Positions 16,309-64,000 are shown, numbered from the stretch's first letter. The stretch: 64,000 bases of DNA from Candidatus Omnitrophota bacterium (GCA_041651455.1 JBAZJG010000006.1:25409-89408), one strand, 5' to 3'. Made by a program: numbers and translations. The notes: generated by a model not told the origin, from the sequence alone.

Positions 16309-16376
16309 AAACAGGGCAAGCCAGCGCTGGAGTGAAATGTTCGGCGTTCTAATATAATATCTTCTAATAGGTAATC

Positions 16377-42521: not shown

Positions 42522-43349
42522 CTATTTAGGCCGGCGCGCGACAAAAGCCAGGAATACCGCTATTACTATTAACCCTATTATGACCATCATGACCGACGAG
42601 AAAGACAGCGCCAAGGCCGGGGCGGGTGCAGCGAAGACCGCTATGCCCCATTCGCTCGGGTCGGCGTAAACATTCTTCGTCCCGTACCAGGTAAACTGCA
42701 GTTCCCTCTTGTGCGTATCGGCGTCGTCCACCGAGATATCGAAATCTATCTTCCTGCCTACTTCGGGTTTGAACCCGCCGAGGGCCTTGAAGGGTATCTT
42801 CGACTCGATTATGTAGCCCTTGTCCCACCTTACCGAGGCGACCTCTATGCCGCCGACATAATCATCCCGGCGCCATACCCATTCTCCCGCCTTGATATCC
42901 TTTTCGTTGCCGGGGCTTATGCCGATCTGGTAGTCCTTCTTCCCGAAGAACATCCTCTTCGGGTCGGCCTTATCGTCGAGCCCGAGCATTATCTCTAACG
43001 CGTCGCCGTCCCAGATGTCCGGGCCCTCCTTGCTGTTGTCGAAAGGCACGTCATCGGTGACCTTAGCCGCCACATACAGAGCGTCGTCATCCCATAGCAT
43101 GTAGATATCGGCGCTGAGGTCTTCCTTGCCGGACCATACGTTATACATGAGTATTTCGTAGGATTGTTTGTCCATCCTTATGGTATAACCGGGGTATTTG
43201 CTAAGGTCGCAGTCGACCTTTACCGGTTTTGAGGCCTTATGGATGCGGACTTCGGGTTTCGGTAACGGCTTATCCTGCGCCTGGCACTGCTGGGGGGGAA
43301 CGGAAAATAAAAAAAGGGCTGCTGCCGCGAGCGGTAATAGCTTTTTCAT
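42522..43349 (-). CDS. CBM9-like carbohydrate-binding domain protein with signal peptide and C-terminal TM anchor
   Basis: 275 aa. CBM9-like core (DIYMLWDDDALYVAAKVTDDVPFDNSKEGPDIWDGDALEIMLGLD). C-terminal hydrophobic helix plus RRPK. Confidence 0.55.
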   Translation of the reverse strand: MKKLLPLAAAALFLFSVPPQQCQAQDKPLPKPEVRIHKASKPVKVDCDLSKYPGYTIRMDKQSYEILMYNVWSGKEDLSADIYMLWDDDALYVAAKVTDDVPFDNSKEGPDIWDGDALEIMLGLDDKADPKRMFFGKKDYQIGISPGNEKDIKAGEWVWRRDDYVGGIEVASVRWDKGYIIESKIPFKALGGFKPEVGRKIDFDISVDDADTHKRELQFTWYGTKNVYADPSEWGIAVFAAPAPALALSFSSVMMVIIGLIVIAVFLAFVARRPK

Positions 43350-45763: not shown

Positions 45764-46903
45764 TTATTTCGGTTTCGCGCTCGATCCCCTTACAACGAGG
45801 TCGACGGGTATAACTTCTTTCGTCGCGATATTTATCCGCCCCTCGATCCTGTCTATTAGCTTCTTCAGCGCTATCGAGCCCATCTCCTCCTTCGGCACGT
45901 TAACGGTGGTCAGCGGGGGCGTAGAGAGCGCGGCCCATTCTATATTGTCGAAACCGACGATAGATATGTCGCGCGGTATCGAAAGGCCGCTCTTTTCGCG
46001 TATGGCTTTCATCGCGCCCATGGCCGCCTCGTCGTTGATCGCGAAGACCGCGGTAGGGAGAGGGTTCTTCTTCAATATCTTCTCCATCGCCTTATACCCT
46101 TCCTCGACCATGTAATAGCCTTCTATGACGAGGTTGTCGTCGTATTTGATCCCGGCCTCCTGGAGGGCCGCCTTATAACCCTCGAGCCTGCCTATCGACG
46201 CGGGCTGGTCCTGCAGCGGGGCGCGTATCATCGCGATACGTTTGTGGCCGAGGTCGGTAAGGTGCTTCACGGCCAGGTATCCGCCGTTCCTGTTGTCGGG
46301 TATGACCGAATCTATCGCGGGCTTCGAGATCTCGTTATCTACGAGGACGAGCGGGAATTTCTTGTCGTAGAGGCTCAGGACCGTCGTGCGGTCGAGCCCC
46401 CCTATGACGATGATGCCGTCTACGTTGTTCTCCATCGCCCATCTCGCGATATCGCGCTCATCCTTGACCGAGGTCACGAAATTGAACGAGAGCGTGCATC
46501 CCATCCTCAGGGCTTCCTTCTGCATCATCGAGAATATGCCGACGTAGTAAGGGCTCAATATGGGAGATTGCGAGGTCGGGTTGAGGCGCCTCAGGATACA
46601 CGCGACGTTCTTGCGCCTCGACTGGCGCTTCATCGATGAAAAGGCATGGGCTTTCTGCAGTCCTTCCGCGTCCGAGACGAACGTCCCGGTGCCGGGTACG
46701 GAATACAGAAAGCCCTCCCTTATCAATTGCGCGATGCCGCGCCTTAATGTGATGCGGTTGATCCCGTGCTCCTTGCTCAGGATGCGTTCCGAAGGTATCG
46801 GTTCCCCGGGCTTGAACTGGCCGGCCTGGACCTGCTTGCGCAGTATATCGGCGAATTGCTGGTAGAAGAACTTTCCGCTCGACTTGTCCACCTTCGGGCT
46901 CAC
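45764..46903 (-). CDS. Transcriptional regulator with GntR-type wHTH N-terminus and LacI/PBP-type sugar-binding C-terminal domain
   Basis: 379 aa. GntR HTH (FYQQFADILRKQVQAGQFKPGEPIPSERILSKEHGINRITLRRGIAQLIREGFLYSVPGTGTFV), then a periplasmic-binding-protein-like type 1 fold (DGIIVIGG, LVLVDN, IGFDNIEWAA). Confidence 0.75.
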   Translation of the reverse strand: MSPKVDKSSGKFFYQQFADILRKQVQAGQFKPGEPIPSERILSKEHGINRITLRRGIAQLIREGFLYSVPGTGTFVSDAEGLQKAHAFSSMKRQSRRKNVACILRRLNPTSQSPILSPYYVGIFSMMQKEALRMGCTLSFNFVTSVKDERDIARWAMENNVDGIIVIGGLDRTTVLSLYDKKFPLVLVDNEISKPAIDSVIPDNRNGGYLAVKHLTDLGHKRIAMIRAPLQDQPASIGRLEGYKAALQEAGIKYDDNLVIEGYYMVEEGYKAMEKILKKNPLPTAVFAINDEAAMGAMKAIREKSGLSIPRDISIVGFDNIEWAALSTPPLTTVNVPKEEMGSIALKKLIDRIEGRINIATKEVIPVDLVVRGSSAKPK

Positions 46904-46915: not shown

Positions 46916-47539
46916 TTATTTGATATCGACGACCTTAAGCTCGTCGATATGTATCGTGACGGATTTCTTGCCCTTGTTATATGCCGGGCCGACCGCGAAC
47001 TTGATCTCTTTAAGCTCGGCCGGGTTGAAATCTATGCCGGTAACCATCTTGCTGTTGTTCGCGTCCCAGTACTGCCCCTTCTTGGGATAGGCGGTGAACG
47101 GTATGACCACCTTCTGCCACTCCTTGGTAGTCCTGACGAAGTTCGGGGTAGCCATGACACCTATCTCCGTCTTGTTGCCGTCGCTGTCGTCCGCGTCTAT
47201 GAGTATGACCTCGAAGTTCTCCCCGCCTTCCGCACCTTTCACCCAGAACTCTATGCCGGGTTTCTTATACTGTGTAAGGTCCGCGAGCGGATAATGCCCC
47301 ACCGCCGCGCCGGACCACTGCGTGCAGTCAAGCGTCGCCGTAAGGCAGGCGTCTCCCGACTTTGCGCCGGACTTGTTGATCTCGAACTCCGTGCCTCCTC
47401 CGTATACGTATTTATACTGGCCGTTCGATTCGTCTATCACGTCGATGTAATAATCTACCGTCTCGGCCTGCGCAAGCCTCGCTGCGCCTACAAGCGCCAA
47501 ACCGCACAAGAACATTACCGCAAACACCCTCTTTCCCAT
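46916..47539 (-). CDS. Secreted beta-sandwich (CBM-like) protein
   Basis: Track ORF starts at TTG 47584. ATG at 47539 (MGKRVFAVMF..., after AAAGGGGG) gives a signal peptide. The C-terminal module resembles the PEP-CTERM protein and the four tandem paralogs. Confidence 0.45.
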   Translation of the reverse strand: MGKRVFAVMFLCGLALVGAARLAQAETVDYYIDVIDESNGQYKYVYGGGTEFEINKSGAKSGDACLTATLDCTQWSGAAVGHYPLADLTQYKKPGIEFWVKGAEGGENFEVILIDADDSDGNKTEIGVMATPNFVRTTKEWQKVVIPFTAYPKKGQYWDANNSKMVTGIDFNPAELKEIKFAVGPAYNKGKKSVTIHIDELKVVDIK

Positions 47540-47541
47540 CT

Positions 47542-49266
47542 TTACTGCCCCCTTTCTTTGAATACGACAAAGCCCCACTGGCAAGGTTCCTCATAAAATC
47601 TCTCGTCCCCCGAGAGGACCATCTGAGTGTGCCTGTCCTTCGTGTCCGAATCGTTCAATGCCGCGTTGAAGCTGACCTTCATGCCGGGCGACGGTACAAA
47701 GTCCTGCGAGAATGACTTCCACGGCACCACCGCCTCGACAATATACCCGCCGGCTGCGCCCTCCGGCTTATATACCGCCGACTGCACTCCTTCGACCCTG
47801 TTCTTCAACTGCCATGACCATCTCTGCGGGATCACTTCTTTCCTGTTGCCGGTACTGAAACCGATCTGGTAATCCGCCGCGTCGAAAGCCATCCTGTTCG
47901 GGTCGGCCTCAGGGTCGAGGCTGAACGCGATCTCGAAACTGTCGCCGTTCCATATCGCGTCGCCGCGCTTATCGTTGATGAAGGGCTTGTCGTCCTTTAC
48001 TTTTGCCGCGACATAAAGGTTCGCCTCGTCCCACATCAGGTATACTTCCGCGCTTATATCGTCGGGGCCTTTCCAGATATCCTGGCCCATGATCACGTTC
48101 CTCTTGTCGCTTATCACGACCGGCACAACATCCGCCCATTCGGAGAGGTCGCCGTCCGCCGTGACGGGTGCGGCCGCCTTTATAATCTCGATCACCGGCC
48201 TTGCGTATTCCGCCTGCGGGGCCGGCCTGAGTTCCGCCGTGACGCCCTCCGGAAGGCTGAACCCTTTCAGCAGTTTGGAAAAATACACGGGGTCGCTCTT
48301 GAAATACGGGTCGGATACCGCTTCCGAGAACGCCTTGAGTATATCATTTTTCCCGTGAAGCCGCCAGTCGCATTCCTTCTTTATATTAAACCACACAATT
48401 GCTTTTACGCGCGGGAATTTTTGCCTGAGCGCAACAAAGGCGTCTTTTATCCATTGTATCTTGTCGCCGCCGGCATCGCCCGAGGCGAACTCGCCTATCA
48501 TTATCGGTTTACCGGGATATTTTTCCGTCAGCTGCTTATAGCGCTTCGCGAAAATCTTCTCGAACGGGTTCCAGCGGCTCCACTTCTCGGCCGTGCCCCA
48601 GTTATAACCGTCTATAGATACCCAGTCGACGTAGTTGTCCCCCGGGTAGTAATTGCTGTAGGTGTTCCACTGGGTCCACGGCACCTCGGTATCCATGACG
48701 CACCAGACCCATATCGCGTTATCGGCGCCGACCTCTTTAAAGAGGTCGTATACGTGGCGCCACGCCTTAATGTACTTCTTCGGGTCCTTATCGTTCTGGG
48801 CGCCGGACCACGGGTACCAGTTGCCGTCCATCTCGTGGCCCATACGAAGGAAATACGAGGTCCCGAGTCTCTTTCCGCGCTTAGCGAATGTCCTTATATA
48901 TTCGTCGTATTGCCCGTTGATTATGTTATCAAGGTAGATTATGTCCTTGCCGTCCTTCTTTATCCAGGGTTCCCATGTGACGTGGGGTATCGCGCCGTAA
49001 TCGACGATAGCCTTGCAGTCCTCCAGCGGAAAGATCTTCTGCCAATCGATGTAGAACATCACGGAGCCGGACTTCTTGTTTGTGGCGGCGTCGAAACGGT
49101 TTATCGGCGCGATGCGTATGGGGGTGTTCTCCATGAATATGCCCCACAGGCAGCCTTCGGGGATGTCCTGCGCCGCGGGGTCCGCTGCCGCGCAATCCGC
49201 CCTTCCGCAGGAGGCGAAAAGCGCGATGGACAGGAATAACGGTATCATGGCCGGTATCAATCTCAT
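47542..49266 (-). CDS. Glycoside hydrolase family 26 (beta-mannanase-like) with C-terminal CBM9-like module
   Basis: 574 aa. Signal peptide. GH26-type TIM barrel (MFYIDWQ, RMGHEMDGNWYPWSG, WVWCVMDTEVPWTQ, WFNIKKECDWRL). C-terminal CBM9-like segment (EVYLMWDEANLYVAAKVKDDKPFINDKRGDAIWNGDSFEIAFSLD). Confidence 0.65.
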   Translation of the reverse strand: MRLIPAMIPLFLSIALFASCGRADCAAADPAAQDIPEGCLWGIFMENTPIRIAPINRFDAATNKKSGSVMFYIDWQKIFPLEDCKAIVDYGAIPHVTWEPWIKKDGKDIIYLDNIINGQYDEYIRTFAKRGKRLGTSYFLRMGHEMDGNWYPWSGAQNDKDPKKYIKAWRHVYDLFKEVGADNAIWVWCVMDTEVPWTQWNTYSNYYPGDNYVDWVSIDGYNWGTAEKWSRWNPFEKIFAKRYKQLTEKYPGKPIMIGEFASGDAGGDKIQWIKDAFVALRQKFPRVKAIVWFNIKKECDWRLHGKNDILKAFSEAVSDPYFKSDPVYFSKLLKGFSLPEGVTAELRPAPQAEYARPVIEIIKAAAPVTADGDLSEWADVVPVVISDKRNVIMGQDIWKGPDDISAEVYLMWDEANLYVAAKVKDDKPFINDKRGDAIWNGDSFEIAFSLDPEADPNRMAFDAADYQIGFSTGNRKEVIPQRWSWQLKNRVEGVQSAVYKPEGAAGGYIVEAVVPWKSFSQDFVPSPGMKVSFNAALNDSDTKDRHTQMVLSGDERFYEEPCQWGFVVFKERGQ

Positions 49267-49321: not shown

Positions 49322-50041
49322 TTACATCGCCCTGCCGGCGCGCAGGGAAGCGGTATATGCTCCGCATCTCTTATATCCGGCCCAGGCCTTGCCGCTTACC
49401 TTCGGGTCGGGGTCTATCTCCGAGACTATAAGATAGCACATCATGGCCGCCTGCCCGTATTCCGCACGGTCGGGCCCGTCGCAGGCCTTCGAAAGGCCCT
49501 CGTAGTACTTCGCCGCCTCGAGATAATTCCTTGATGCCTGTTTCTTCTCGTCGCCTGTCTTCGAACGCAGGCCCGCAATTATACCTTCCGCGCTGCCGCC
49601 CGGCTCGATGCCCGGCAGCCTCAGCTGGCCCGCCAGGCCGCCGTTGCACAGCGCAATGCCCTTTTCTGCCAGCGTCTCCATGCCTTCCGGAGGGCTGTAT
49701 CCCTCCGCTTCCGCGCCTGCCCGCGCCCGGCAGGCGATGCCTTCACTGGCGCACCCTTTTACGACCTCAAAACATCCCCTTGCGAGGATGAAGTACCTGC
49801 TCTTCTTCAACGGTATATCATGCTCTTTTGCGCGCTTCATGAGCTTCTCCGCAAGATCCAGGTATGCCCTGCAGCATGACTCGCGCTCCTGCCTGTCCTC
49901 GATACGGCTTATCCTGCCTACCGCGATCTTCACGTCGGGATCGCAGTTCGGCATGAATATGCCGTCATCGGCCGCGCAGGCCCCGAAACTTAACATTGCC
50001 GCAAACGCTAATACGAAGCTCTTCATCCGGCACCTCCTCAT
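49322..50041 (-). CDS. Hypothetical secreted Cys-rich protein
   Basis: 239 aa. Signal peptide and about 14 Cys. No recognisable family. Start overlaps the stop of the GspK-like gene by 4 nt. Confidence 0.35.
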   Translation of the reverse strand: MRRCRMKSFVLAFAAMLSFGACAADDGIFMPNCDPDVKIAVGRISRIEDRQERESCCRAYLDLAEKLMKRAKEHDIPLKKSRYFILARGCFEVVKGCASEGIACRARAGAEAEGYSPPEGMETLAEKGIALCNGGLAGQLRLPGIEPGGSAEGIIAGLRSKTGDEKKQASRNYLEAAKYYEGLSKACDGPDRAEYGQAAMMCYLIVSEIDPDPKVSGKAWAGYKRCGAYTASLRAGRAM

Positions 50042-52185: not shown

Positions 52186-52288
52186 CTTATCCCCGCCTGT
52201 AAATAGTTTAGGGAGGCCTGAGAGTTGGGGGACTGCATTACTATCAGACCTCCCCAAACGAACTGGGTTGTCTATACTTAGAAGCGGA

Positions 52289-52933
52289 TCACTTCTTCCT
52301 TCTGGAGGCCGCTAACATCCCGACTAAACCCGAGCCGAGAAGCAGCAGGCTTGCCGGTTCCGGTACCGCCTGGATGTCATCGACGCCGAAGTCTACGCTG
52401 CCTCCGGGTGCGGTGCCGCCGCATGCCACGACCAGGTTGATCTGCTTGAGGTCGCCGGTCCATACGTCATCGCCGGTCCCCGCGTTCTGGTCGACAAAGT
52501 TCGCGAAAGGCAGCGATATCGTCTTCCAGCCCGTCCAATCGACGGGCGTGTAGGTCGGAGAGCCGTAATAGCCGCCCGCGAATACATCGCCGTCGTTCTC
52601 GTACAGCTCATACTTGATCGTGCCGTAGCTGCCGTCTCCCTTCACGCTGACGACCAAGTCTGACAGGCCCGACCAGTTCTGCGGTTTGTAATTTCCCCAT
52701 CCGCCCAAATACCAGTTGCCGTTCACATCGGTGCCGTTAAGCCTTAGGTAATTACCGCTGGGCCCTCCCGCAACCGTGGCCTCCGAAAGCTCTCCCGTAT
52801 CCTGGAATCCGTAAGAACCGGAAGGCAGGGCCGGAGGAGTCGAGGTCTCAAAATCCTCCCAGGTTGCAGCCGAAACGCCTGATGCGAACAGGAGGGACAC
52901 AGCCAAAACGACTAAAATAGAGAATCTCTTCAT
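52289..52933 (-). CDS. PEP-CTERM sorting-signal protein with secreted beta-sandwich (CBM-like) domain
   Basis: 214 aa. Signal peptide. C-terminus VPEPASLLLLGSGLVGMLAASRRKK is a textbook PEP-CTERM exosortase signal. Confidence 0.8.
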   Translation of the reverse strand: MKRFSILVVLAVSLLFASGVSAATWEDFETSTPPALPSGSYGFQDTGELSEATVAGGPSGNYLRLNGTDVNGNWYLGGWGNYKPQNWSGLSDLVVSVKGDGSYGTIKYELYENDGDVFAGGYYGSPTYTPVDWTGWKTISLPFANFVDQNAGTGDDVWTGDLKQINLVVACGGTAPGGSVDFGVDDIQAVPEPASLLLLGSGLVGMLAASRRKK

Positions 52934-55648: not shown

Positions 55649-57037
55649 CTAGTTGGGTTTCTTGCCTACCCTCGGAGGCTCTACTACATCGCAGCCCTTC
55701 GCCCATAATTCCTTGAGGGCGTAGTATGCCTTCTTCGGGATCCTCTTATTGACACCGTTCTCCTTCTCGAGGCTCATGCCGACTATGCCGTACCATTCCT
55801 CGTTCATGTTCATGTGGCCTTCGACCTCGATGTCGAAATAATAGGCGCCGTTCGTCCAGCCGGCTGTCTCATCCTGGACATACCAGCTCGCGGGGTTCGC
55901 GGCATCATGCTTCCACCACTCGTCGTTCCATTCGAATATGCACCCGCCGAGCACTGTGCCCTTGCCGGTCTTGCCGCAGGTGTTCCTGAGAATCTCCTTC
56001 CACTGCGATATAAGGAACTTAACCTGTATATCCTCATCCTCTTTTTTGGTCAGCGCGTTATACCTGTCGCAGCCGAACTCAGTCAGGACTATCGGCTTGC
56101 CGAACCTCTTGTTCGCCTGCTCCCATGTGTTGCCGAAGCTCATGCCCCTGTAGGATATGAGCCCGAGTATGTCTATATCGGGAGTCACCGTGCTGGCAAC
56201 ATCGAGGAAAAAGACCTCGCCGTTGCCCATCGCAACCGGATGGTTCGGGTCAATCTTTTTGATCTCCTTCGCAATGTCGTTAACGAAGCTGTAATACAGT
56301 TTCGCTTTCGCGTTCGCTCTCTCCTTCGGGTCTTCTATGCTGTCGAGCTCGTCGGAACCCCACGGAGCGATCTGGTCGTCGAAACTGTAATTATTCTCGT
56401 TGCCGAGGAGCCAGAAGAGTATCCCGGGCTCGTCCTTATAGGCCTTAACGATACTGAGGACCTCTTCCTTCACCTGCTGCCTGTAGCCCTCATCGGCGTA
56501 GTTAGGCGGCGGTATATCATAGATGCCGAGGTTATGGCCCATTATAGTGCGGATGCCGAACCTGCTGTAGAGGTCGGAAAGGACCTGTTTCGTTTCCTGC
56601 TGGCTCTCTCCCGGCTGGTAGAAACGCACCGTATTTATCGAGGCGTCCTTCATCAGCTGCCCGTCCACAAGCCACGGCTTGGTCGGGTCGCCCCACCAGT
56701 TATAGGTATAATCCTGCCCCGGAGGGACCGGCTGGTAGCAGACGCCCATTACCACATAGGTCTCGCCGTTTACGACAAGACGGAAATGGCCGTTGGGCAT
56801 CTTCTCGACGAACGTCTTCTTGCCCTTTGCCGCGGGTTTTGAGGACATCTTGCTGAAGAGGAAACATCCGCCTATCATGAATGACATCAACAACGCCAGC
56901 AACAATAACAGGTAAAACCCTTTCTTGCCATCCTTGCGCTTGTGGTGATGCGCATGCGCGGTGTGGTGGCCATGGTGATGCGCCCCCTGCCCCGCGTGGT
57001 GCTCGTGATGCTCGTAGCGTAAGTTATGTTGATCCAT
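55649..57037 (-). CDS. GH2-like TIM-barrel glycoside hydrolase (catalytic domain only) with His-rich N-terminus and TM/signal anchor
   Basis: 462 aa. Motifs FWLLGNENNY (acid/base region), VLTEFGCDRYN (nucleophile region), GGCIFEWNDEWWK (compare LacZ GGFVWDWVDQ). N-terminal HHEHHAGQGAHHHGHHTAHAHHH then a hydrophobic anchor. Paralog of 59668..61659. Confidence 0.55.
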   Translation of the reverse strand: MDQHNLRYEHHEHHAGQGAHHHGHHTAHAHHHKRKDGKKGFYLLLLLALLMSFMIGGCFLFSKMSSKPAAKGKKTFVEKMPNGHFRLVVNGETYVVMGVCYQPVPPGQDYTYNWWGDPTKPWLVDGQLMKDASINTVRFYQPGESQQETKQVLSDLYSRFGIRTIMGHNLGIYDIPPPNYADEGYRQQVKEEVLSIVKAYKDEPGILFWLLGNENNYSFDDQIAPWGSDELDSIEDPKERANAKAKLYYSFVNDIAKEIKKIDPNHPVAMGNGEVFFLDVASTVTPDIDILGLISYRGMSFGNTWEQANKRFGKPIVLTEFGCDRYNALTKKEDEDIQVKFLISQWKEILRNTCGKTGKGTVLGGCIFEWNDEWWKHDAANPASWYVQDETAGWTNGAYYFDIEVEGHMNMNEEWYGIVGMSLEKENGVNKRIPKKAYYALKELWAKGCDVVEPPRVGKKPN

Positions 57038-57047
57038 TTTTTATTCT

Positions 57048-57659
57048 TTACTCGTAATAGATATCGTCAAAATAAATCGTGAAACCGTCCGGGTTATCCG
57101 CAGCGCTCGCTGCCCAACAGAACCCGCCCGAAATATAGGTCAGGTCTTTGCCCGTAAGGTCGATGACATATTCCTTCCACTCCGGCGTGAGCGTCAGCGG
57201 CCCGATAGAAGCGGTATCGGTATCCGCGTACTCACCGGTAATGCCTCCTGTCTTTACCTCGGCAAGCACTTCGCCGCCCTTGCCGCCCCTGGCCCAGAAG
57301 ACCAGTTTCTTGGCACCTGTCAGGTCGAAACCGCCCGATTTCATGCCCCAGTTGTTCGCGGGATTCTGCCAGTAGATGCCGCACCAGCCGGCTCCCTGTT
57401 TCTGTTCGCCGGTGCAGGTTATCTTGATGCAGGTCGTACCTTCGTGCGGGTTCTCCTTCCATCCGGTGTCAAGCTTGATATCGCCATAATCGCCCATCCA
57501 GCCGGAGGGGATATAATGGTTATCGCGCGATGACCTGTCGGCATAAACATTGAACTTCTTGAACTCGGCATACGAAACGCCTGCCGCGCTCACTAACAGG
57601 ACTAACGCGGCAATAATTAATACTGACTTTCTCATTACATTACCCTCCTTGTTCTCCAC
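57048..57659 (-). CDS. Tandem paralog 1 of a ~200-aa secreted beta-sandwich (putative carbohydrate-binding) protein
   Basis: 203 aa (probable start M9, MRKSVLII...). Signal peptide. Conserved core EFKKFNVY...NHYIPSGWMGDYGDIKLDTGWK...TTCIKIT...QKQGAGWCGIYWQNPANNWG...FDLTGAKKLVFWARG...GGITGEYADTD...EWKEY.IDLTGKDL..ISGGFCWAASAADNPDGFTIYFDDIYYE. Confidence 0.6.
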   Translation of the reverse strand: MENKEGNVMRKSVLIIAALVLLVSAAGVSYAEFKKFNVYADRSSRDNHYIPSGWMGDYGDIKLDTGWKENPHEGTTCIKITCTGEQKQGAGWCGIYWQNPANNWGMKSGGFDLTGAKKLVFWARGGKGGEVLAEVKTGGITGEYADTDTASIGPLTLTPEWKEYVIDLTGKDLTYISGGFCWAASAADNPDGFTIYFDDIYYE

Positions 57660-57660
57660 T

Positions 57661-58248
57661 TTACTCGTAGATTATATCGTCAAGATATATCGTAAAGCCG
57701 TCCGGGTTAGAGGCGGCATTTGCCACCCAGCAGAAACCTCCCGCTATCGAGGAAAGGTCCTTGCCCGTCAGGTCTATCGAGTATTCCTTCCAATCGGACG
57801 TAAGCGTGATCTCGGACGTGCCGGCGCAATCGCTATCCGCATATTCGCCCGTGATGCCGCCGGTCTTGAACTCGGCTATCTTCTCTCCGCCCTTCGCGCC
57901 CTTCGCCCAGAAGACGAGCTTTGTGGCCCCCTTCAGGTCGAAACCGCCCGGCTGCGTGCCCCAGTTGTTCGGGGGATTCTGCCAGTATACGCCCGCCCAG
58001 CCGGCGCCCTGCTTCTGATCGGCGGTGTATGTCACTTTGATGCAGGTCGTGCCGGAATGCGGCGCATCCTTGCTTCCGGTATCGATCTTGATATCGCCGT
58101 AGTCGCCCATCCATCCCGAAGGAGTGTAATGGTTGTCCCTGGCGGTCTTTTCCGTATATACGTTGAACTTCTTGAATTCGCCGTAAGCCAGTGAAGCGGC
58201 GCCGGTAAAAACAGCCAGCGCAAGCAACAATGCCCCTGCCTTTTTCAT
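57661..58248 (-). CDS. Tandem paralog 2 of secreted beta-sandwich protein
   Basis: 195 aa. Same architecture, about 75% identical to paralog 1. Separated from it by 1 nt. Confidence 0.6.
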   Translation of the reverse strand: MKKAGALLLALAVFTGAASLAYGEFKKFNVYTEKTARDNHYTPSGWMGDYGDIKIDTGSKDAPHSGTTCIKVTYTADQKQGAGWAGVYWQNPPNNWGTQPGGFDLKGATKLVFWAKGAKGGEKIAEFKTGGITGEYADSDCAGTSEITLTSDWKEYSIDLTGKDLSSIAGGFCWVANAASNPDGFTIYLDDIIYE

Positions 58249-58284
58249 CTGCGATCCCCCTTTTTTTCGCGAAGCTGATACGGT

Positions 58285-58890
58285 TTATTGCGCTTTTTCG
58301 AAATATATGTCGTCCAGGTATATCGTGAACCCGTCCGGGTTGTCCGCGGCGCTCGCGGCCCAACAGAACCCGCCCGAAATATGCGAGAGGTTCCTGCCCG
58401 AAAGGTCAATCGAATACTGGTTCCAGTCCTTGGTAAGTACTATATTCTCTATCGTGGCCGTGTCCGAATCGGCGAATTCCCCGGTGATGCCGCCGGTCTT
58501 GAACTCGGCTATTTTTTCCCCGCCCTTCGCGCCCTTCGCCCAGAAGACGAGCCTCGACGCGCCCGTCAGGTCGAAACCGCCCCGCTCATTTCCCCAGTTA
58601 TTCGGGGGATTCTGCCAGTACATCCCGGCCCAACCCGCACCCTGGCTCTGCTCGGCGCTGTAGGTTATCTTGATGCAATTCGCGCCCGAATGGGGCCCGT
58701 CCTTGCATCCGGCATCCAGTTTTATATCCCCGAAATCCCCCATCCATCCGGAAGGAAAGAAATGATTGTCCCTGGCCGTCTTTTCGGTATAGACGTTGAA
58801 CGACTTTGTGTCGGCGCCCGGAGAAGCCGTGCCCGACGGCGCGCACGAAACAATGAACGCGGCCAATATCATGACTGCCGAAAACCTCAT
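58285..58890 (-). CDS. Tandem paralog 3 of secreted beta-sandwich protein
   Basis: 201 aa. Same conserved core. Different N-terminal region (Cys-containing signal, possible lipoprotein: IVSCAPS). Confidence 0.6.
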   Translation of the reverse strand: MRFSAVMILAAFIVSCAPSGTASPGADTKSFNVYTEKTARDNHFFPSGWMGDFGDIKLDAGCKDGPHSGANCIKITYSAEQSQGAGWAGMYWQNPPNNWGNERGGFDLTGASRLVFWAKGAKGGEKIAEFKTGGITGEFADSDTATIENIVLTKDWNQYSIDLSGRNLSHISGGFCWAASAADNPDGFTIYLDDIYFEKAQ

Positions 58891-59038
58891 CTCAAATCCC
58901 CCTTCTACCTTATTAGATGCTCATGGCCCGGGAAAGGTTTACACCTAACACTTTTAAAGAGCCGGCGCTTCTTTTTCAAGAAGCGCCGGGATCCCTGCTT
59001 CTTCGTTTACCTATTATACCCCTTAATTACCCTACGGT

Positions 59039-59650
59039 CTACTCGTAATATATGTCGTCAAAGTAGATCGTGAACCCTTCCGGGTTGTCGGCCGCGCTCG
59101 CCGCGAAGCAGAAACCGCCCGATATATACGAGAGGTCCTTGCCCGTAAGGTCTATCGAATACTCTTTCCATTCCGGCGTCAGCGTCAGAGGGCCTATAGA
59201 CGCGGAATCGGTATCGGCATACTCGCCCGTGATACCGCCCATCTTGACTTCCGCCAATGTGCCTACCTGGGTCTTGGAGATCATCTCTCCGCCCTTCTCG
59301 CCCCTCGCCCAGAAGACAAGCTTCTTGGCGCCGGTCAGGTCGAAACCGCCCGGTTTGCTGCCCCAGTTATTCGCGGGATTCTGCCAGAAGATACCGCACC
59401 AGCCGGCTCCCTGCTTCTGTTCGCCCGTGTAGGTGATCTTTATACAGGTCGTACCCGAATGCGGGTTATCCTTCCATCCCGTATCCAGCTTTATGTCACC
59501 CCAGTCGCCCATCCAACCCGAGGGGATATAATGGTTATCCCTCGCGCTCCTCTCGGAGTAAACGTTGAACTTCTTGAACTCGGCGTACGTGAGGCCGACC
59601 GCGCCGGCAAGTACCGCCAAGGTCACTACCGCCACCACTAACTTCTTCAT
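59039..59650 (-). CDS. Tandem paralog 4 of secreted beta-sandwich protein
   Basis: 203 aa. About 88% identical to paralog 1, with an 8-aa insertion (ISKTQVGTL). Confidence 0.6.
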   Translation of the reverse strand: MKKLVVAVVTLAVLAGAVGLTYAEFKKFNVYSERSARDNHYIPSGWMGDWGDIKLDTGWKDNPHSGTTCIKITYTGEQKQGAGWCGIFWQNPANNWGSKPGGFDLTGAKKLVFWARGEKGGEMISKTQVGTLAEVKMGGITGEYADTDSASIGPLTLTPEWKEYSIDLTGKDLSYISGGFCFAASAADNPEGFTIYFDDIYYE

Positions 59651-59667
59651 TGCTCAACCCCCTTTCG

Positions 59668-61659
59668 TTATTTTGTCCAATTCTCTTTGTACCAGAAGTA
59701 CGCTTTCTTCAGATGCCTCAAGAACGGACTGTCCGCACCGTCTCCCTGGCTTGCGACGCCAAGGTACTCCTCGTGGAGCCATCCATCCGGGAACGGCCCC
59801 CTGAAATTGCCGGGTATCCTTGTCTTTGCCTTGTAATCCCAGCCTTCCCAATCCTGTTTTGCCGGGTCAAGCTGCGGCGGAGGACCGGCCTTCCACCATT
59901 CATCCACCCACTCGAAGCAGACTCCTCCCAGAGCGTTGCCGTATCCGGAGCCCGCCATATTGTATTCGATATCCTCCCAGTTCCCTTTATGGTATTCCGC
60001 CTGCAGTTCCTCGCCCTTCTGCGGGTCATCCTTTATATAAGAAGGGCAGCCGTATTCGGTTATTATCGACGGCCTGTCCGTCATGTCCTTGACGTCTTCC
60101 CAGTAGGTCCTTCCGAACCCGTTCGGCCCGCGGTATACGTTCGCGCCGAAGACGTCCACATCCGGGCAGTGTTTCGCGAAATAGTTCAGGTAGACCGTTT
60201 CGCCGTTGCAGATAGCGACCGGGTGGTTGGGGTCTATCGACTTTATCATCTTCGCGACCTCGTTCACGAACGAATAATACGCGTCCGGCTGCAGCTTCGC
60301 ACGGCAGCCCATTCCGGGCTCGACTTCCGGCGTCCCGGGAAAACCGTAATTGTTCTCGTTGCCGAGGACCCACATCAGTATGTAGGGCTCGTCCTTATAC
60401 TCCGTGACGATCTGGCGGACGCTCTCCATCATCTTTTTCTGGTGCTCCGGATTCGAATAATCCGTACCGCTGTACCAGTCGGCCCCCGAGCCCGCCGCGT
60501 ACATGCCGAGGAAATCCCCCATCAGGTACATGAAACCGTACTTCTCGTACCCTTCTTTCAGCAGGTCCCTGTTCGTGGAATGGTGGTAGAGGCGTATCGT
60601 ATTCACGCCCATATCTTTCATCAGCTGGAAATCTCCGATAACGGCCTCATCCGCGTCCTTCTTGTTGTTCTTGTTGGCGTCGATATATGCGTCGAACGGC
60701 CCGTCCGCCTTCCCGCTGTTGTTGAAATCCGCGGTCATCCAGTCGGTCTGCACGTTGAGCGTACCGTTGTCGGGCGAGAGCCCAACCTTGTTCGGCGAAT
60801 ACGCCATGGCTTTCATCGGGAACGGTTTGCCGTCCACGAGGAGCTGCCAGTGCCCGTTCTCGTACTTGACGAGCTTTACGTGCTCTCCGCCCGCTTTCTT
60901 CACTACCTTGAGCTTGGAAACGTCGACCTTAGCCGGGACCACTTCCCCGGGGCTGACCTTAACCAGCCTGCCCGGGTTTATCATGAACTTGTCGTTGGAT
61001 ATTTCGTTATCGTAGGAATTCTCTATCGTTATCTTCGCGTCAACAAGTTTTATGCCGAGCTCGGGATGCGTCCTTATGAGGTATTCGAGGTCGTTCAGCG
61101 ACATCTTCGATATGTACAGCGGGGTATGCCAGAACGTCCAGCCGACGGACTTCGGGAAATTCACGAGGACCGCATAATGCGCCTTTATGGCCTGCAGCGT
61201 GTAACCGGCTTTCGCGAGCGCTACGGCGGTATAATGCTGTTTCACCCCGGGTTCTTCGCTCGTCGTGGCCCACTTATAGAAGGTGAGGACCTGGTCGTCG
61301 TTGTTGACGAACTCCCACTGGTTGCCGGTAAGCTTGCCGGTGGCCTGGGCTTCCCTGTAACCAGGGTCCTTATATACGCTCGTGCTGGGATATATCCCTT
61401 CGCCGACGGCGGCGGAGAGGCCCTTCCTGTCCTTGATGGTATACTTATATTGCTCGGTGCCGACTTTAGTGAATTCACCGTATTTCGCGTAGTCGACTAT
61501 CTCCTCGGTCCCGGGGTCGAACAGGGGTTTGATCTCAGCCGCAACCGCACCCTTTGATAAAGGACAGGTTAAAAACGTGATTATCAAAACGCATAAAAAA
61601 CACCTTCTAACCCCCATGTAACCCTCCTCAGGATATCGTGAATATGTTAACAGTAACAT
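59668..61659 (-). CDS. GH2-like TIM-barrel glycoside hydrolase with N-terminal accessory beta-sandwich domain(s)
   Basis: 663 aa. Signal peptide. Motifs MWVLGNENNYGFPG, IITEYGCPSY, GGVCFEWVDEWWKAG shared with 55649..57037. Confidence 0.55.
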   Translation of the reverse strand: MLLLTYSRYPEEGYMGVRRCFLCVLIITFLTCPLSKGAVAAEIKPLFDPGTEEIVDYAKYGEFTKVGTEQYKYTIKDRKGLSAAVGEGIYPSTSVYKDPGYREAQATGKLTGNQWEFVNNDDQVLTFYKWATTSEEPGVKQHYTAVALAKAGYTLQAIKAHYAVLVNFPKSVGWTFWHTPLYISKMSLNDLEYLIRTHPELGIKLVDAKITIENSYDNEISNDKFMINPGRLVKVSPGEVVPAKVDVSKLKVVKKAGGEHVKLVKYENGHWQLLVDGKPFPMKAMAYSPNKVGLSPDNGTLNVQTDWMTADFNNSGKADGPFDAYIDANKNNKKDADEAVIGDFQLMKDMGVNTIRLYHHSTNRDLLKEGYEKYGFMYLMGDFLGMYAAGSGADWYSGTDYSNPEHQKKMMESVRQIVTEYKDEPYILMWVLGNENNYGFPGTPEVEPGMGCRAKLQPDAYYSFVNEVAKMIKSIDPNHPVAICNGETVYLNYFAKHCPDVDVFGANVYRGPNGFGRTYWEDVKDMTDRPSIITEYGCPSYIKDDPQKGEELQAEYHKGNWEDIEYNMAGSGYGNALGGVCFEWVDEWWKAGPPPQLDPAKQDWEGWDYKAKTRIPGNFRGPFPDGWLHEEYLGVASQGDGADSPFLRHLKKAYFWYKENWTK

Positions 61660-61714: not shown

Positions 61715-64000
61715 CTATTGGCCCGGCCTAAGGACCGCCCTTCCCCAGTACCTCGAATTCCTGTCGTTGTCCTCGGCTCCGTTCCATATCAGCTGGCATT
61801 CCCTGGCGCCCGTACCGTCGGCATCATCAAGAGCCACGTCAAGCGCGAGTTCCCTGCCCGCGGTAAAATCGTCGTACCCGAAGTTTCCGGTCGAGATCCT
61901 CGCTTCGATGATATAGCCAGTCTCGGTCTTCCTGACGGCTATATCGGAATCCTCCGGAGCGGCATTCCTCGTCCCCCTGCCCGACTGTCCGTATATCCAC
62001 ATCGTCTCATTGGCCCCTAACACCGCCTGGAAATCCCTCGAGGAATAACCTTCCTTCGGGAGGTTGTCCGGGTCCGAGCTCAGGAAGAGCTCCAGCGCGT
62101 CGCCGTTCCGGATATTATGGCGTGACCTGCTGTTGACCATCGGCATGTCGTCCTTGATCTCCGCGAGGATGTAAATGTTATCCTCGTCCCAAAGCAGCTT
62201 CACCCTGCCCGACAGGTCCCTGTCGCCCGCGCAATCCCCAGACTTCAATACCGGTTTACCGGCACGTGAGCTGTCCATATATATGACGGAGGCTCCCGAC
62301 CATTCGTCCCCGGCCAGGCCGTCGACCTGCACCCGCTGTGCGGTATGCTTTATTTCATAAGGAGGCCTTTCGTAGACCTTCACTTCCGCCCTGAACTTCT
62401 CCTTGAGCGACTTGTCCTCGGAGACATTTATGTGCTTCAGGCCTACAGCCCTCTTTCCTCCGGCAGTCACGGCAACGGCAAACACCGAAAATATATTGTC
62501 ATCCGTATTATAAGGAAGCGTGAAAGAGGACTTATATGCCCCCCACGCGTTCATCTTTGCGGCAAACCTGTTGGATATGCCGTTCCTCATGTCGTTAATG
62601 GAGTAATATATCGCGGCATTGGATGCGGGAGTCAGGGCAAAGGAGACCCCTGGTTTCTGTCCCGCTTTATACGACTGCTTGTCTGTCTTTATATCCAGCG
62701 CTGATGAAGGGTCATACATATCATTGCGCGAGGCCTTCGAATAGTGCGGCCAGAAATCCAGGAATACCCTGCTCAGGGCCGCGGTGCGCTCCGTCACGCA
62801 TATTCCGGTGGCACCCGCGGCTATCATCCCGTCCAAAAGCTCTAAAGCCTGCGCGCCCCCTATCCCGCTGACGACCATGGGCCTGTCCTTAGCGTAAACA
62901 TCCTTATACCACCTGGCGTAATCGTACGGCATCAGCCCGCCGGTACCGGATTCCGGCGATACGACACCCGCTATGCCGAACACGGGAAGCTGCGGATAAT
63001 CGCAGCGTTCGCCGTAGGATACGGATACCTCCCTGTCCGGGTCCATCGACTTTGCTTCGTGCGCCGCCGCGACCAGCATGTCCCTTGTTTCCGTAAGCCC
63101 GGAGGCCAGTACCGCGGCCGGATCTATGCCCGCCGATATCGTATAATAGAGTATATTCCCGTGCCGGCGCGACCAGCCGGTTATCTGCTGGATCCGCGCG
63201 ATATCAAGGCCCTGTATGACCATAAGGCCGTTCTTTTCCGCGATTATGATGTCCCTCTCGGAAAGGGGGGATACGGCGGCTATCGTATTGAATCCCGCCT
63301 GCCTGATGCGCGCCATGCCATCCTCCACCGACTTCAAAGAAGGCGTATCGAAACGCGGGTCCTGGCCGGGCCTGTAAGGGTCGTACACCACGCCCTTAAC
63401 GAAGAACTTCTTCCCGCCGACATATATCCAGTTCCCGTTTACCGCGACCTCTTCCTTGCGCGACAGGCGCCCGGAAGACTTCGTCATGACCTTGACCTGC
63501 GCCGGCGCGCTTTCATATCCGTCGCTGTATACCGCCGCCACCCCGTACTCGTGAAATCTTTCCGCCGCGGGCGCGCCTTCCGAATAGAACTGGCCGTCCG
63601 TGGCCGCGATCCTCGAACCGTCCCTGTATATTTTATAGTTCAACAGGAACGGATTATCGGAGGAATCCCAATAGAGGAATACCTTCCCGCCCGAAGAAAA
63701 GCCCTTCAGGCCTTCGACTGCGGAATGGCGGACCTCTTTATGGCATGACAATGCCAGATTATCCAGGTAAACTGCCGATGCCTTCTTGCCCTTCACTATG
63801 ACAGACAGCGATTTAATCCTTTTCTGCCCGAAGACACCGTCCCCTTCCGCGCCTTCCCCGCATGATTCGCGGACAAACAGGTCGAAATCATAATAGAAAT
63901 CTTTCCGCCCGTTCCAGACGTTTTTTATCCACGGCGTCCTGTAGCATTCATTATCGCTGTCCGCCGCCATTATTGCGAACTCGTTTCCGGACATATCCCC
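61715..64000 (-). CDS. Multidomain glycoside hydrolase-like protein (TIM-barrel region plus C-terminal CBM9-like module), N-terminus may extend beyond window end
   Basis: At least 759 aa. First in-window Met at 63994, but no upstream stop is visible inside the window. C-terminal CBM9-like segment (VKLLWDEDNIYILAEIKDDMPMVNSRSRHNIRNGDALELFLSSD) similar to 42522 and the GH26 C-terminus. Confidence 0.5.
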   Translation of the reverse strand, partial: GDMSGNEFAIMAADSDNECYRTPWIKNVWNGRKDFYYDFDLFVRESCGEGAEGDGVFGQKRIKSLSVIVKGKKASAVYLDNLALSCHKEVRHSAVEGLKGFSSGGKVFLYWDSSDNPFLLNYKIYRDGSRIAATDGQFYSEGAPAAERFHEYGVAAVYSDGYESAPAQVKVMTKSSGRLSRKEEVAVNGNWIYVGGKKFFVKGVVYDPYRPGQDPRFDTPSLKSVEDGMARIRQAGFNTIAAVSPLSERDIIIAEKNGLMVIQGLDIARIQQITGWSRRHGNILYYTISAGIDPAAVLASGLTETRDMLVAAAHEAKSMDPDREVSVSYGERCDYPQLPVFGIAGVVSPESGTGGLMPYDYARWYKDVYAKDRPMVVSGIGGAQALELLDGMIAAGATGICVTERTAALSRVFLDFWPHYSKASRNDMYDPSSALDIKTDKQSYKAGQKPGVSFALTPASNAAIYYSINDMRNGISNRFAAKMNAWGAYKSSFTLPYNTDDNIFSVFAVAVTAGGKRAVGLKHINVSEDKSLKEKFRAEVKVYERPPYEIKHTAQRVQVDGLAGDEWSGASVIYMDSSRAGKPVLKSGDCAGDRDLSGRVKLLWDEDNIYILAEIKDDMPMVNSRSRHNIRNGDALELFLSSDPDNLPKEGYSSRDFQAVLGANETMWIYGQSGRGTRNAAPEDSDIAVRKTETGYIIEARISTGNFGYDDFTAGRELALDVALDDADGTGARECQLIWNGAEDNDRNSRYWGRAVLRPGQ

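What the first reader, a model, noticed from the sequence alone, without database searches (positions are those of the whole stretch)
55649..61659. Four tandem paralogous genes for ~200-aa secreted beta-sandwich proteins sandwiched between two GH2-like hydrolase paralogs
Genes 57048..57659, 57661..58248, 58285..58890 and 59039..59650 encode the same domain. Paralogs 1 and 4 are about 88% identical, and 2 and 3 about 75%. Each has its own signal peptide. The conserved core has many Trp/Gly (NHYIPSGWMGDYGDIKLDTGWK ... QKQGAGWCGIYWQNPANNWG ... GGFCWAASAADNPDGFTIYFDDIYYE). The array is flanked by two paralogous catalytic-domain-only GH2-like enzymes (55649..57037 and 59668..61659). A distantly similar module ends the PEP-CTERM protein (52289..52933) and the protein at 46916..47539. 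The layout resembles a set of surface glycan-binding proteins (functionally like SusE/F or detached CBMs) expanded by recent tandem duplication. The near-identical DNA repeats should also make this a recombination and copy-number-variation hotspot. No family name could be assigned from memory.
Basis: partly seen in the sequence, partly recalled or inferred. Interest (0 to 1): 0.7.

Follow-up and report, generated by a model that had tools for sequence, protein, structure and literature searches.

The report
Unnamed glucan-binding-like module gene array
Four neighbouring genes in a Candidatus Omnitrophota genome encode small exported proteins with the fold of a carbohydrate-binding module; they belong to a large unnamed family that usually sits beside, or is fused to, beta-glucan-cutting enzymes, so they are most likely detached sugar-binding helpers and not a recent or unstable duplication.

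Summary
The four paralogous genes and the two flanking paralogous hydrolases are real. P1 more likely starts at ATG 57635. Mature-domain identities are 90% (P1/P4) and 75% (P2/P3).

Elsewhere the module is fused to GH17, to GH158-like domains and to a lichenase-type GH26. In 54 of 78 loci from other species, a homologue of the flanking enzymes lies within 6 kb. Those enzymes are clan GH-A barrels nearest to GH157 and GH158, both endo-beta-1,3-glucanase families, not true GH2.

So the "detached glycan-binding module" reading is supported, with beta-glucan as the probable ligand. The [quoted passage not shown] reading is refuted:
- DNA identity is 72-79%.
- dS is at least 1.05 for every pair.
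- Paralog types are shared across species.
- The array is collinear without gaps in independent assemblies.

This is a candidate new CBM family, still untested biochemically.

The parts
59039..59650 (-). P4: 203-aa exported protein, signal peptide plus one copy of the unnamed CBM-like module (P1/P4 paralog type); has an 8-aa insertion, SKTQVGTL
   Evidence: ORF; family HMM E=1e-107; alignment; clade
58285..58890 (-). P3: 201-aa paralog with a lipobox (FIVSC|APSGTASPG linker), probable lipoprotein; P3 paralog type
   Evidence: ORF; lipobox conserved in 4 close orthologues; clade shared with other genomes
57661..58248 (-). P2: 195-aa paralog with signal peptide (..LAYG|EFKKF); this is the protein modelled; P2 paralog type
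57048..57635 (-). P1: 195-aa paralog. Start corrected to ATG 57635; the ORF is open back to GTG 57659
   Evidence: RBS AAGGAGGG upstream of ATG 57635; public gene calls give 195 aa
59668..61659 (-). GHb: 663-aa exported clan GH-A glycosidase. N-terminal helical region plus 8-strand beta-sandwich, then a TIM barrel with invariant N434/E435 (acid/base) and E535 (nucleophile)
55649..57037 (-). GHa: 462-aa paralog of GHb with a His-rich N-terminal tail, one transmembrane helix, then the GH-A barrel (NENNY and TEFG motifs)
   Evidence: 31% identity to GHb, E=4e-56; GH158 3e-5; Pfam GH2_C and GH72, weak
61715..63994 (-). GHc: upstream gene, cut by the window end (1026-1038 aa in public contigs). CBM11-like N-terminus (outside the window), a GH-A barrel with a GH157 sequence hit, and a C-terminal CBM9
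   Evidence: Pfam CBM9 2e-23; PDB 9fz9/9g4n (GH157) 7e-9; full-length gene calls
58962..58989 (-). GC-rich hairpin just downstream of P4 (CCGGCGCUUCUU-GAAAA-AGAAGCGCCGG) with a weak U tract; a possible attenuator inside the operon. Function not shown
   Evidence: fold; sequence
47542..49266 (-). Same locus: GH26 of the lichenase type plus CBM9
   Evidence: PDB C. thermocellum Lic26A (2bv9) E=5e-52; Pfam
46916..47584 (-). Same locus: detached CBM30/CBM11-like exported protein, the only window protein with detectable distant similarity to the module
   Evidence: Pfam CBM30 1.5e-11 and CBM_11 4e-7; hhalign to the module profile, probability 91%
43368..45722 (-). Same locus: GH94 cellobiose-phosphorylase-like enzyme, the cytoplasmic end of a beta-glucan pathway
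   Evidence: PDB cellobiose phosphorylase E=8e-180; Pfam GH94
45764..46903 (-). Same locus: GntR-HTH plus LacI-type sugar-binding transcription regulator
   Evidence: Pfam
52289..52933 (-). Same locus: PEP-CTERM protein with a CBM11-type domain. No direct sequence similarity to the module
   Evidence: Pfam CBM_11 5e-9 and PEP-CTERM 5e-7; hhalign negative

Best explanation
P1-P4 are non-catalytic, exported carbohydrate-binding proteins. Each consists of a single beta-jelly-roll module from a large, so far unnamed family on the edge of CBM11/CBM30.

They are most likely co-expressed with three clan GH-A glycanases (GHc, GHb, GHa), whose nearest characterised relatives are the endo-beta-1,3-glucanase families GH157 and GH158. 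The proposed mechanism has three steps:
1. The modules bind a beta-glucan (beta-1,3 or mixed-linkage beta-1,3-1,4) outside the cytoplasm. P3 is probably tethered by a lipid anchor, and P1, P2 and P4 are soluble.
2. By holding or concentrating the polymer and its fragments next to the glucanases, they do what a covalently attached CBM does in the fused relatives.
3. The rest of the locus finishes the pathway: a lichenase-type GH26, a GH94 cellobiose-type phosphorylase and a sugar-responsive regulator.

The four copies are old, functionally maintained paralog types, not recent duplicates. They probably differ in anchoring and in fine specificity.

Shown: fold, family size, fusions, synteny, age of the duplications, purifying selection. 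Inferred: ligand identity, cellular location, co-transcription, cooperative action.
For: Fold:
- AlphaFold pLDDT 91, pTM 0.81, all-beta.

Link to CBM11/30:
- hhalign to the window's CBM30/11-type protein gives probability 91%.
- One true family member, P0151 residues 441-594, is itself hit by Pfam CBM_11 at 39 bits against a cutoff of 27.

It behaves like a CBM:
- It occurs 1-8 times per protein in multi-domain relatives.
- It is fused to GH17 in 15 of 53 scanned relatives. That domain is a true GH17 (beta-1,3-glucanosyltransferase 4wtp, E=1e-31).
- It is fused to homologues of GHa/GHb (P0148, P0246, P0204, P0151, P0192).
- It is fused to a GH26 that is 38% identical to the window's lichenase-type GH26 (P0205).

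Synteny:
- 54 of 78 loci from other species have a GHa/GHb homologue within 6 kb.
- 53 of those are on the same strand, 47 lie within 300 nt, and 32 have two or more such hydrolase ORFs.

Enzymes:
- The catalytic N-E and E residues align with BuGH158 N136/E137/E220 and are invariant in 43 homologues.
- Both families are endo-beta-1,3-glucanases (PMC7157763, PMC10229575, PMC10637969).

Maintenance: dN/dS is 0.06-0.16.
Against: - No binding experiment exists for any member of the family, so the ligand is inferred only from association.
- The structural match is spread evenly over many CBM families at 14-21% identity, so it says nothing about specificity.
- GHa and GHb are only distantly related to GH158 (E=1e-13 and 3e-5 over part of the barrel). 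GHb also has a different domain order, so its substrate could differ.
- P1, P2 and P4 have ordinary signal peptides and GHa is anchored in the inner membrane. In a diderm cell that would place them in the periplasm unless a secretion system exports them.
- In Endomicrobia the tandem module genes sit next to a protein of about 910 aa with an OmpA domain and near a type II/IV secretion ATPase, not next to glycosidases.
- No sugar transporter was found beside the array.
Confidence: 0.6

Rival explanations
1. Self-glycan or envelope role. The modules are lectin-like envelope or matrix proteins that bind the cell's own beta-glucan (capsule, exopolysaccharide or periplasmic glucan). The neighbouring GH-A enzymes act as remodelling hydrolases or transglycosylases rather than as nutrient-releasing enzymes.
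For: - In Endomicrobia, 2-4 tandem module genes lie directly downstream of an OmpA-domain protein of about 910 aa and near a T2SSE/MshEN ATPase.
- A PEP-CTERM protein and a GspK-like pseudopilin lie about 5 kb away in the window.
- GHa and its relatives give weak GH72 glucanosyltransferase hits.
- The closest solved relative of the fused GH17 is a transglycosylase.
- The plain signal peptides and the membrane-anchored GHa fit a periplasmic site.
Against: - No glucan synthase (GT2) or exosortase was found among the window ORFs scanned.
- The locus carries catabolic genes: GH94 phosphorylase, lichenase-type GH26 and a sugar-responsive regulator.
- The module is also fused to cohesin/dockerin and secreted multi-domain enzymes, which are typical of extracellular polymer degradation.
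Confidence: 0.2
2. Host or prey attachment. The cassette is part of the surface machinery by which ultra-small, possibly epibiotic or predatory Omnitrophota recognise and breach the glycan envelope of another cell. The modules would act as adhesins and the GH-A enzymes as wall-cutting effectors.
For: - Preprints on Omnitrophota report 'GH2 catalytic-domain' hydrolases and type II/IV secretion genes as the recurrent neighbours of giant surface proteins, and read them as cell-wall attack (10.64898/2026.06.07.730766; 10.1101/2023.11.21.568195, listed).
- The module occurs in very long multi-domain proteins with beta-helix/NosD, PKD and cohesin/dockerin domains (P0148, 2917 aa; P0149).
Against: - Nothing in this window ties the array to a giant protein or to a complete secretion or pilus system.
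- The adjoining GH94, GH26 and regulator genes point to sugar catabolism.
- The family is equally common in gut Endomicrobia.
Confidence: 0.1
3. The module does not bind carbohydrate. It is a generic beta-sandwich used for protein-protein contacts or as a spacer, and its resemblance to CBMs is fold-level only.
For: - There are weak sub-threshold hits to the 'choice-of-anchor J' domain of unknown function.
Against: - The conserved core is unusually rich in Trp, Tyr and Asn, as in glycan-binding clefts.
- The fusion partners and gene neighbours are predominantly glycoside hydrolases.
Confidence: 0.07

Closest known systems
CBM11 (founding member from C. thermocellum Lic26A-Cel5E, PDB 1v0a; Pfam PF03425)
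   Same: - One family member is recognised by the Pfam CBM_11 model above threshold.
- Like CBM11, the module can be attached to a lichenase-type GH26 (P0205).
- The window itself holds a Lic26A-like GH26.
   Different: - None of the four paralogs hits the CBM_11 model, even at E<=1.
- The conserved motifs (PSGWMGD, WAGxYWQNPxNNWG, GGFxW, YLDDI) are specific to the family.
- Here the module is a free-standing gene product, in four tandem copies.
- The ligand is untested.
CBM30 (PDB 2c24; Pfam PF21582) and CBM8 (PDB 7t7z)
   Same: - 4 of 53 multi-domain relatives have a Pfam CBM30 hit.
- The profile of the module aligns with the window's CBM30-type protein at 91% probability.
   Different: - There is no sequence-model match for P1-P4.
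- Identity to the solved structures is only 14-21%.
Surface glycan-binding proteins of Bacteroidota beta-glucan utilisation loci (SGBP-B, SusE/F-positioned; e.g. PDB 7kwb, PMC7157763)
   Same: - Non-catalytic glycan-binding proteins encoded next to the endo-glucanases (GH16/GH158) of a dedicated locus.
- P3 carries a lipoprotein signal, as SGBPs do.
   Different: - No SusC/SusD pair or TonB-dependent transporter was found in the window.
- Three of the four proteins lack a lipid anchor.
- Each has a single domain rather than a multi-domain stalk.
- The phyla differ (Omnitrophota and Elusimicrobiota).
GH158 and GH157 endo-beta-1,3-glucanases (BuGH158 6pal, GH158(Pro) 9oro, Labilibaculum GH157 9fz9), for the flanking enzymes
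   Same: - Clan GH-A TIM barrel.
- Best PDB sequence hits for GHb and GHa are GH158, and for GHc it is GH157.
- The catalytic Asn-Glu and Glu residues are conserved and aligned.
   Different: - Similarity covers only part of the barrel, at 21-27% identity.
- GHb has its beta-sandwich before the barrel and no C-terminal Ig-like domain, unlike BuGH158.
- Activity is untested.

Membership tests
Carbohydrate-binding module (general CAZy sense) | Discrete, independently folding module | tested here: met
   Confident single-domain beta-jelly-roll model, pLDDT 91. It occurs as separable repeats of about 170 aa, 1-8 per protein.
Carbohydrate-binding module (general CAZy sense) | Found appended to carbohydrate-active enzymes | tested here: met
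   Fused to GH17 (15 of 53), to GH158-like barrels and to GH26 (P0205).
Carbohydrate-binding module (general CAZy sense) | Demonstrated carbohydrate-binding activity | not testable with these tools
   No solved structure or characterised protein is a sequence relative, and no paper contains the family motifs SGWMGD or YWQNP.
CBM11 (Pfam PF03425) | Significant match to the family sequence model | tested here: not met
   P1-P4 give no CBM_11 hit at E<=1. Only a divergent relative (P0151 446-540) passes the threshold.
CBM11 (Pfam PF03425) | Beta-jelly-roll fold superposable on CtCBM11 | tested here: met
   [not shown]
CBM30 (Pfam PF21582) | Significant match to the family sequence model | tested here: not met
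   No hit for P1-P4. 4 of 53 multi-domain relatives have a CBM30 hit, and whether it overlaps the module was not checked.
Bacteroidota-type SGBP (SusE/F-like) | Lipoprotein signal peptide for surface tethering | tested here: inconclusive
   A lipobox pattern is present in P3 and its close orthologues only. P1, P2 and P4 have xYA|EF-type cleavage sites. This rests on a pattern rule only; no dedicated predictor was available.
Bacteroidota-type SGBP (SusE/F-like) | Encoded in a locus with a SusC/SusD transporter pair | tested here: not met
   Pfam scans of the window's larger ORFs found no TonB-dependent receptor or SusD.
GH2 (flanking enzymes) | GH2 TIM-barrel domain match | tested here: met
   PF02836 scores 49.9 bits for GHb and 23.5 bits for GHa, against a cutoff of 21. 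The matches are partial.
GH2 (flanking enzymes) | N-terminal GH2 sugar-binding and Ig-like domains | tested here: not met
   No PF02837 or PF00703 hit. All NCBIfam GH2 equivalog scores are far below their cutoffs.
GH158 (flanking enzymes) | Sequence similarity to characterised GH158 members | tested here: inconclusive
   GH158 gives the best PDB hits, but they are weak and partial: GHb 1e-13 and 5e-8 over about 140 aa, GHa 3e-5.
GH158 (flanking enzymes) | Catalytic Asn-Glu (acid/base) and Glu (nucleophile) as in BuGH158 N136/E137/E220 | tested here: met
   The alignment places GHb N434/E435 and E535 on these residues. They are invariant in 43 homologues.
GH158 (flanking enzymes) | TIM barrel followed by a C-terminal Ig-like domain | tested here: not met
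   In the GHb model the 8-strand beta-sandwich (residues about 203-286) comes before the barrel, and nothing Ig-like follows it (architecture of BuGH158 from PMC7157763).
GH157 (flanking enzymes) | Closest structural relative; sequence similarity | tested here: inconclusive
   [not shown]

The most novel reading that the evidence does not exclude
The module plus GH157/158-like cassette is not a feeding system. It is surface recognition-and-cutting gear of ultra-small Omnitrophota, and in another form of Endomicrobia, where it is tied to an OmpA-anchored envelope protein and type II/IV secretion. The modules would act as adhesins for a beta-glucan-like polymer on another cell's envelope, or as components of a previously undescribed lectin layer on the outer membrane.
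Probability: 0.12. Interest if true: 0.7.

Novelty: new variant of a known kind. Interest (0 to 1): 0.45.

Why it matters
If binding is confirmed, this would define a new and very large carbohydrate-binding module family: about 3,200 clusters at 50% identity, in hundreds of species of uncultivated Omnitrophota and Elusimicrobiota. No current Pfam or NCBIfam model names it.

It would also re-label the abundant 'GH2 / beta-glucuronidase' genes of these phyla as GH157/158-like beta-glucanases. That changes how their role in carbon turnover is read in digesters, groundwater, sediments, termite guts and rumen.

The four conserved paralog types, one lipid-anchored and three soluble, offer a simple system for asking why bacteria outside Bacteroidota keep several detached binding modules beside one set of enzymes.

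Tried and rejected
- **Sequence-model searches.** Pfam and NCBIfam scans of P1-P4 gave only noise or sub-threshold 'choice-of-anchor J' hits. A profile search of PDB sequences gave nothing meaningful (best E=0.41).
- **Similarity to the PEP-CTERM protein.** The first comparison aligned only the signal peptides.
- **AFDB fold search.** The library was not available.
- **Recent duplication or gene conversion.** Rejected from dS of at least 1.05, a longest exact DNA match of 33 nt, the cross-species paralog clades and gap-free collinearity between assemblies.
- **Mannan as the target.** It looks less likely because this GH26 matches the lichenase Lic26A at 5e-52 and mannanase-type GH26 entries only at about 1e-7.
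- **Promoter and terminator scan.** It gave counts close to those from shuffled sequence, so it was not used as evidence.
- **Literature searches.** Searches for the family motifs and for PDB codes 9FZ9/9G4N found nothing relevant. The 'CBM11' search mostly returned CBM112, an unrelated Bacteroidota mannan-binding family.
- **Self-made glucan reading.** I looked for a glucan synthase or exosortase near the array to support it, and found none in the window.

Full report
**1. What is in the sequence**

ORF listing confirms four minus-strand genes at 57048-57659, 57661-58248, 58285-58890 and 59039-59650 (P1 to P4). They lie between two larger minus-strand genes, 55649-57037 (GHa, 462 aa) and 59668-61659 (GHb, 663 aa).

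The four proteins align over their whole length with 76% mean column identity. A family HMM finds exactly these four in the six-frame translation of the window, at E 1e-104 to 1e-108. The next ORF scores E=0.003.

Full-length identities are 84% for P1/P4 and 70% for P2/P3.

P1 most likely starts at ATG 57635. An AAGGAGGG ribosome-binding site lies 8 nt upstream of it, public gene calls give 195 aa, and the extra eight residues have no counterpart in the paralogs.

P1, P2 and P4 have a hydrophobic N-terminus ending in xYA/G followed by EFKKF. P3 instead has FIVSC followed by a Pro/Ser/Gly linker. This is a lipobox pattern, and it is kept in its four closest orthologues. These are pattern-based inferences, because no signal-peptide predictor was available.

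GHa and GHb are paralogs: 31% identity over about 430 residues, E=4e-56.

**2. The duplications are old and the array is stable**

- DNA identity between the paralogs is 72-79%, and the longest exact shared stretch is 33 nt.
- Nei-Gojobori estimates over the mature domains give dS of 1.05-1.71 for every pair, including P1/P4 (1.22). dN/dS is 0.06-0.16.
- In a neighbour-joining tree with paralogs from other contigs, the window's genes fall into three clades: P3-type, P2-type and P1/P4-type. Each clade also contains genes from several other genomes.
- A contig whose P2-type protein (P0024) is 72% identical to P2 has the same order: hydrolase, four modules, hydrolase. Three species-representative genomes show four-gene arrays flanked the same way (L005, L010, L012).
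- The entire 6,011-bp segment is collinear with zero gaps in two independent assemblies, at 99.7% and 98.3% identity. It is collinear at 90.6% and 83.4% in two further species.

The 'recent tandem duplication' and 'near-identical repeats, recombination hotspot' parts of the finding are therefore refuted. Copy number does differ between distant species, from 1 to 4 within 12 kb.

**3. What the module is**

P1-P4 hit nothing in Pfam. In NCBIfam they give only sub-threshold matches to the uncharacterised 'choice-of-anchor J' domain. A profile search of all PDB sequences gave no meaningful match.

The family is nevertheless very large:
- A word-indexed search returned 1,201 homologues. All are unnamed and without Pfam domains, and most named sources are Candidatus Omnitrophota.
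- An exhaustive profile search found 3,180 clusters at 50% identity (2,290 at E<=1e-10).
- Among the best 150 of those, 66 proteins carry 2-8 copies, in proteins of up to 2,917 aa.
- A scan of species-representative genomes confirmed at least 561 loci. They come from Omnitrophota, MAGs labelled Planctomycetia, Endomicrobia and other Elusimicrobiota, Eisenbacteria and Caldiserica.

At the sequence-profile level, the family aligns with the window's own CBM30/CBM11-type protein (46916-47584) at 91% probability. One true family member, P0151 residues 441-594, is itself hit by Pfam CBM_11 above threshold.

The family therefore sits at the edge of the CBM11/CBM30 group of jelly-roll modules, but no existing model captures it. 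The PEP-CTERM protein (52289-52933) also has a CBM_11-type domain, yet it shows no direct similarity to the module.

**4. What it travels with**

Of 53 multi-domain relatives scanned, 15 carry a GH17 domain. For one of them, the domain matches the beta-1,3-glucanosyltransferase 4wtp at E=1e-31.

Five relatives contain a domain homologous to GHa/GHb (P0148, P0246, P0204, P0151, P0192). P0205 is a GH26 that is 38% identical to the window's GH26, with the module at its C-terminus. Others carry beta-helix/NosD, PKD, and cohesin plus dockerin domains.

In the 78 loci from other species:
- 54 have a GHa/GHb homologue within 6 kb of the module gene.
- In 53 of those it is on the same strand, in 47 it lies within 300 nt, and 32 loci have two or more such hydrolase ORFs.
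- 36 of the 78 loci have two or more tandem module genes.

These loci are the 80 best matches, so close relatives are over-represented. Even so, the linkage spans several phyla.

**5. What the flanking enzymes are**

Pfam gives partial GH2 TIM-barrel hits plus weak GH72 hits. Public records call the family 'GH2 TIM barrel-domain containing protein' or 'beta-glucuronidase'.

Against PDB sequences, the best matches are GH158 enzymes: 9oro at 1e-13 and BuGH158 (6pal) at 5e-8 for GHb, and 9oro at 3e-5 for GHa. The alignment puts GHb's LGNENNY and ITEYG motifs on BuGH158's N136/E137 and E220 (residue roles from PMC7157763). N434, E435 and E535 are invariant in 43 homologues.

The upstream gene GHc is cut by the window end. 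It also hits the GH157 entry by sequence (7e-9), and it carries CBM9 plus, in the full-length public gene, CBM11.

GH157 and GH158 are both endo-beta-1,3-glucanase families (PMC10637969; PMC10229575; PMC7157763). So the enzymes are clan GH-A retaining glycosidases nearest to the beta-1,3-glucanase families. They are too distant, and differ too much in domain order, to be filed in either family.

**6. The wider locus**

Downstream on the same strand lie:
- an M48 peptidase;
- the PEP-CTERM CBM11-type protein and a GspK-like pseudopilin;
- a GH26+CBM9 whose best PDB match is the C. thermocellum lichenase Lic26A (5e-52), the enzyme that carries the founding CBM11;
- the CBM30/11-like protein;
- a GntR/LacI-type regulator and a GH94 that matches cellobiose phosphorylases at 8e-180;
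- a CBM9-only protein.

No SusC/SusD, sugar ABC transporter, glucan synthase or exosortase was found among the ORFs scanned. BamD-like and Lnt genes elsewhere in the window indicate a diderm envelope with lipoproteins.

**7. Best explanation**

P1-P4 are detached, exported glycan-binding modules that serve the neighbouring GH157/158-like glucanases in trans. This is the same job the module does in cis in the fused relatives. The probable ligand is a beta-1,3 or mixed-linkage beta-glucan.

The lipid-anchored P3 type and the soluble P2 and P1/P4 types have been kept apart under purifying selection since before these species diverged. That argues for distinct roles, in anchoring and in fine specificity, rather than for redundancy or dosage.

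Fold, family size, fusions, synteny and evolutionary age are shown. Ligand, location and cooperation with the enzymes are inferred. Confidence is about 0.6.

**8. Rivals and loose ends**

In Endomicrobia loci without a GH158-like neighbour, 2-4 tandem module genes follow a protein of about 910 aa with a C-terminal OmpA domain, and lie a few kb from a T2SSE/MshEN ATPase. A further pair of loci has a single module gene beside an alpha-glucan phosphorylase.

Together with the plain signal peptides, the membrane-anchored GHa and the weak GH72/GH17 transglycosylase affinities, this keeps two rival readings open. One is an envelope or self-glucan role (about 0.2). The other is a host or prey attachment role, as proposed for Omnitrophota 'GH2' genes and secretion systems in two preprints (about 0.1). 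A purely non-lectin role is unlikely (about 0.07).

**9. Novelty and score**

The kind of thing is known: a beta-jelly-roll CBM, and detached glycan-binding proteins beside glucanases. What is new:
- It is an unnamed, uncharacterised family of very wide distribution.
- Its organisation as conserved tandem paralog types is distinctive.
- Its tight linkage to an equally uncharacterised GH-A lineage in candidate phyla has not been described.

I could not check CAZy or dbCAN directly, so an existing CAZy assignment cannot be excluded.

A specialist would see this as a solid lead for a new CBM family, and as a correction of current annotation, rather than as a surprise. Interest is 0.45.

Noticed in passing
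window 56930-57037 (N-terminus of GHa, minus strand): GHa begins with a very His-rich stretch (MDQHNLRYEHHEHHAGQGAHHHGHHTAHAHHHKRK), followed by a single transmembrane helix. This is an unusual, possibly metal-binding cytoplasmic tail on a membrane-anchored glycosidase.
   Followed up: no
window 58962-58989 (minus strand), in the 148-nt gap between P4 and P3: A perfect 11-bp GC-rich hairpin sits right after the P4 stop codon, with only a weak U tract. It could be a partial terminator or an RNA-stability element that sets different expression levels for P4 and P3-P1. The fold of the whole gap is no more stable than shuffled sequence (z = -1.3).
   Followed up: partly
window about 60760-61530 (GHb residues about 45-300): GHb and its homologues share a strongly conserved N-terminal region that matches no Pfam family. 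It consists of a helical bundle plus an 8-strand beta-sandwich, with pLDDT mostly above 90. Its function is unknown.
   Followed up: partly
L049:3106-8557, L061:251-12074, L077, L046 (Endomicrobia/Elusimicrobiota loci): Here 2-4 tandem module genes lie directly downstream of a protein of about 910 aa with a C-terminal OmpA domain, plus a second protein of about 923 aa with no Pfam match. A T2SSE/MshEN secretion or pilus ATPase is nearby. This is a second recurrent context with no glycoside hydrolase.
   Followed up: partly
window 42522-43349, 46916-47584, 52289-52933, 57048-59650: The 43-64 kb stretch encodes seven free-standing CBM-type exported proteins: one CBM9-only, one CBM30/11-like, one PEP-CTERM CBM11-type and P1-P4. 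That is an unusual density of detached binding modules for a bacterium outside Bacteroidota.
   Followed up: partly
window 59668-61659 and its homologues P0271-P0390: Public records name this enzyme family 'GH2 TIM barrel-domain containing protein' or 'beta-glucuronidase', and a 2026 Omnitrophota preprint counts such genes as GH2. The nearest characterised relatives are the GH157 and GH158 beta-1,3-glucanases, so those annotations are probably misleading.
   Followed up: yes
window 16001-18000: GC content drops to 0.39, against 0.53-0.59 elsewhere, around a TPR-repeat protein gene (16377-17477). This may be a foreign insertion.
   Followed up: no
window 59039-59650 (P4): P4 and its orthologue P0051 carry an 8-residue insertion (SKTQVGTL) just after the conserved KGGE motif. 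It is absent from the other paralogs.
   Followed up: no
window 50038-52257: A 739-aa protein with only a weak, partial match to the type II secretion minor pseudopilin GspK lies next to the PEP-CTERM protein. It is much longer than a normal GspK, and it is conserved at this position in the related contigs L001 and L002.
   Followed up: no
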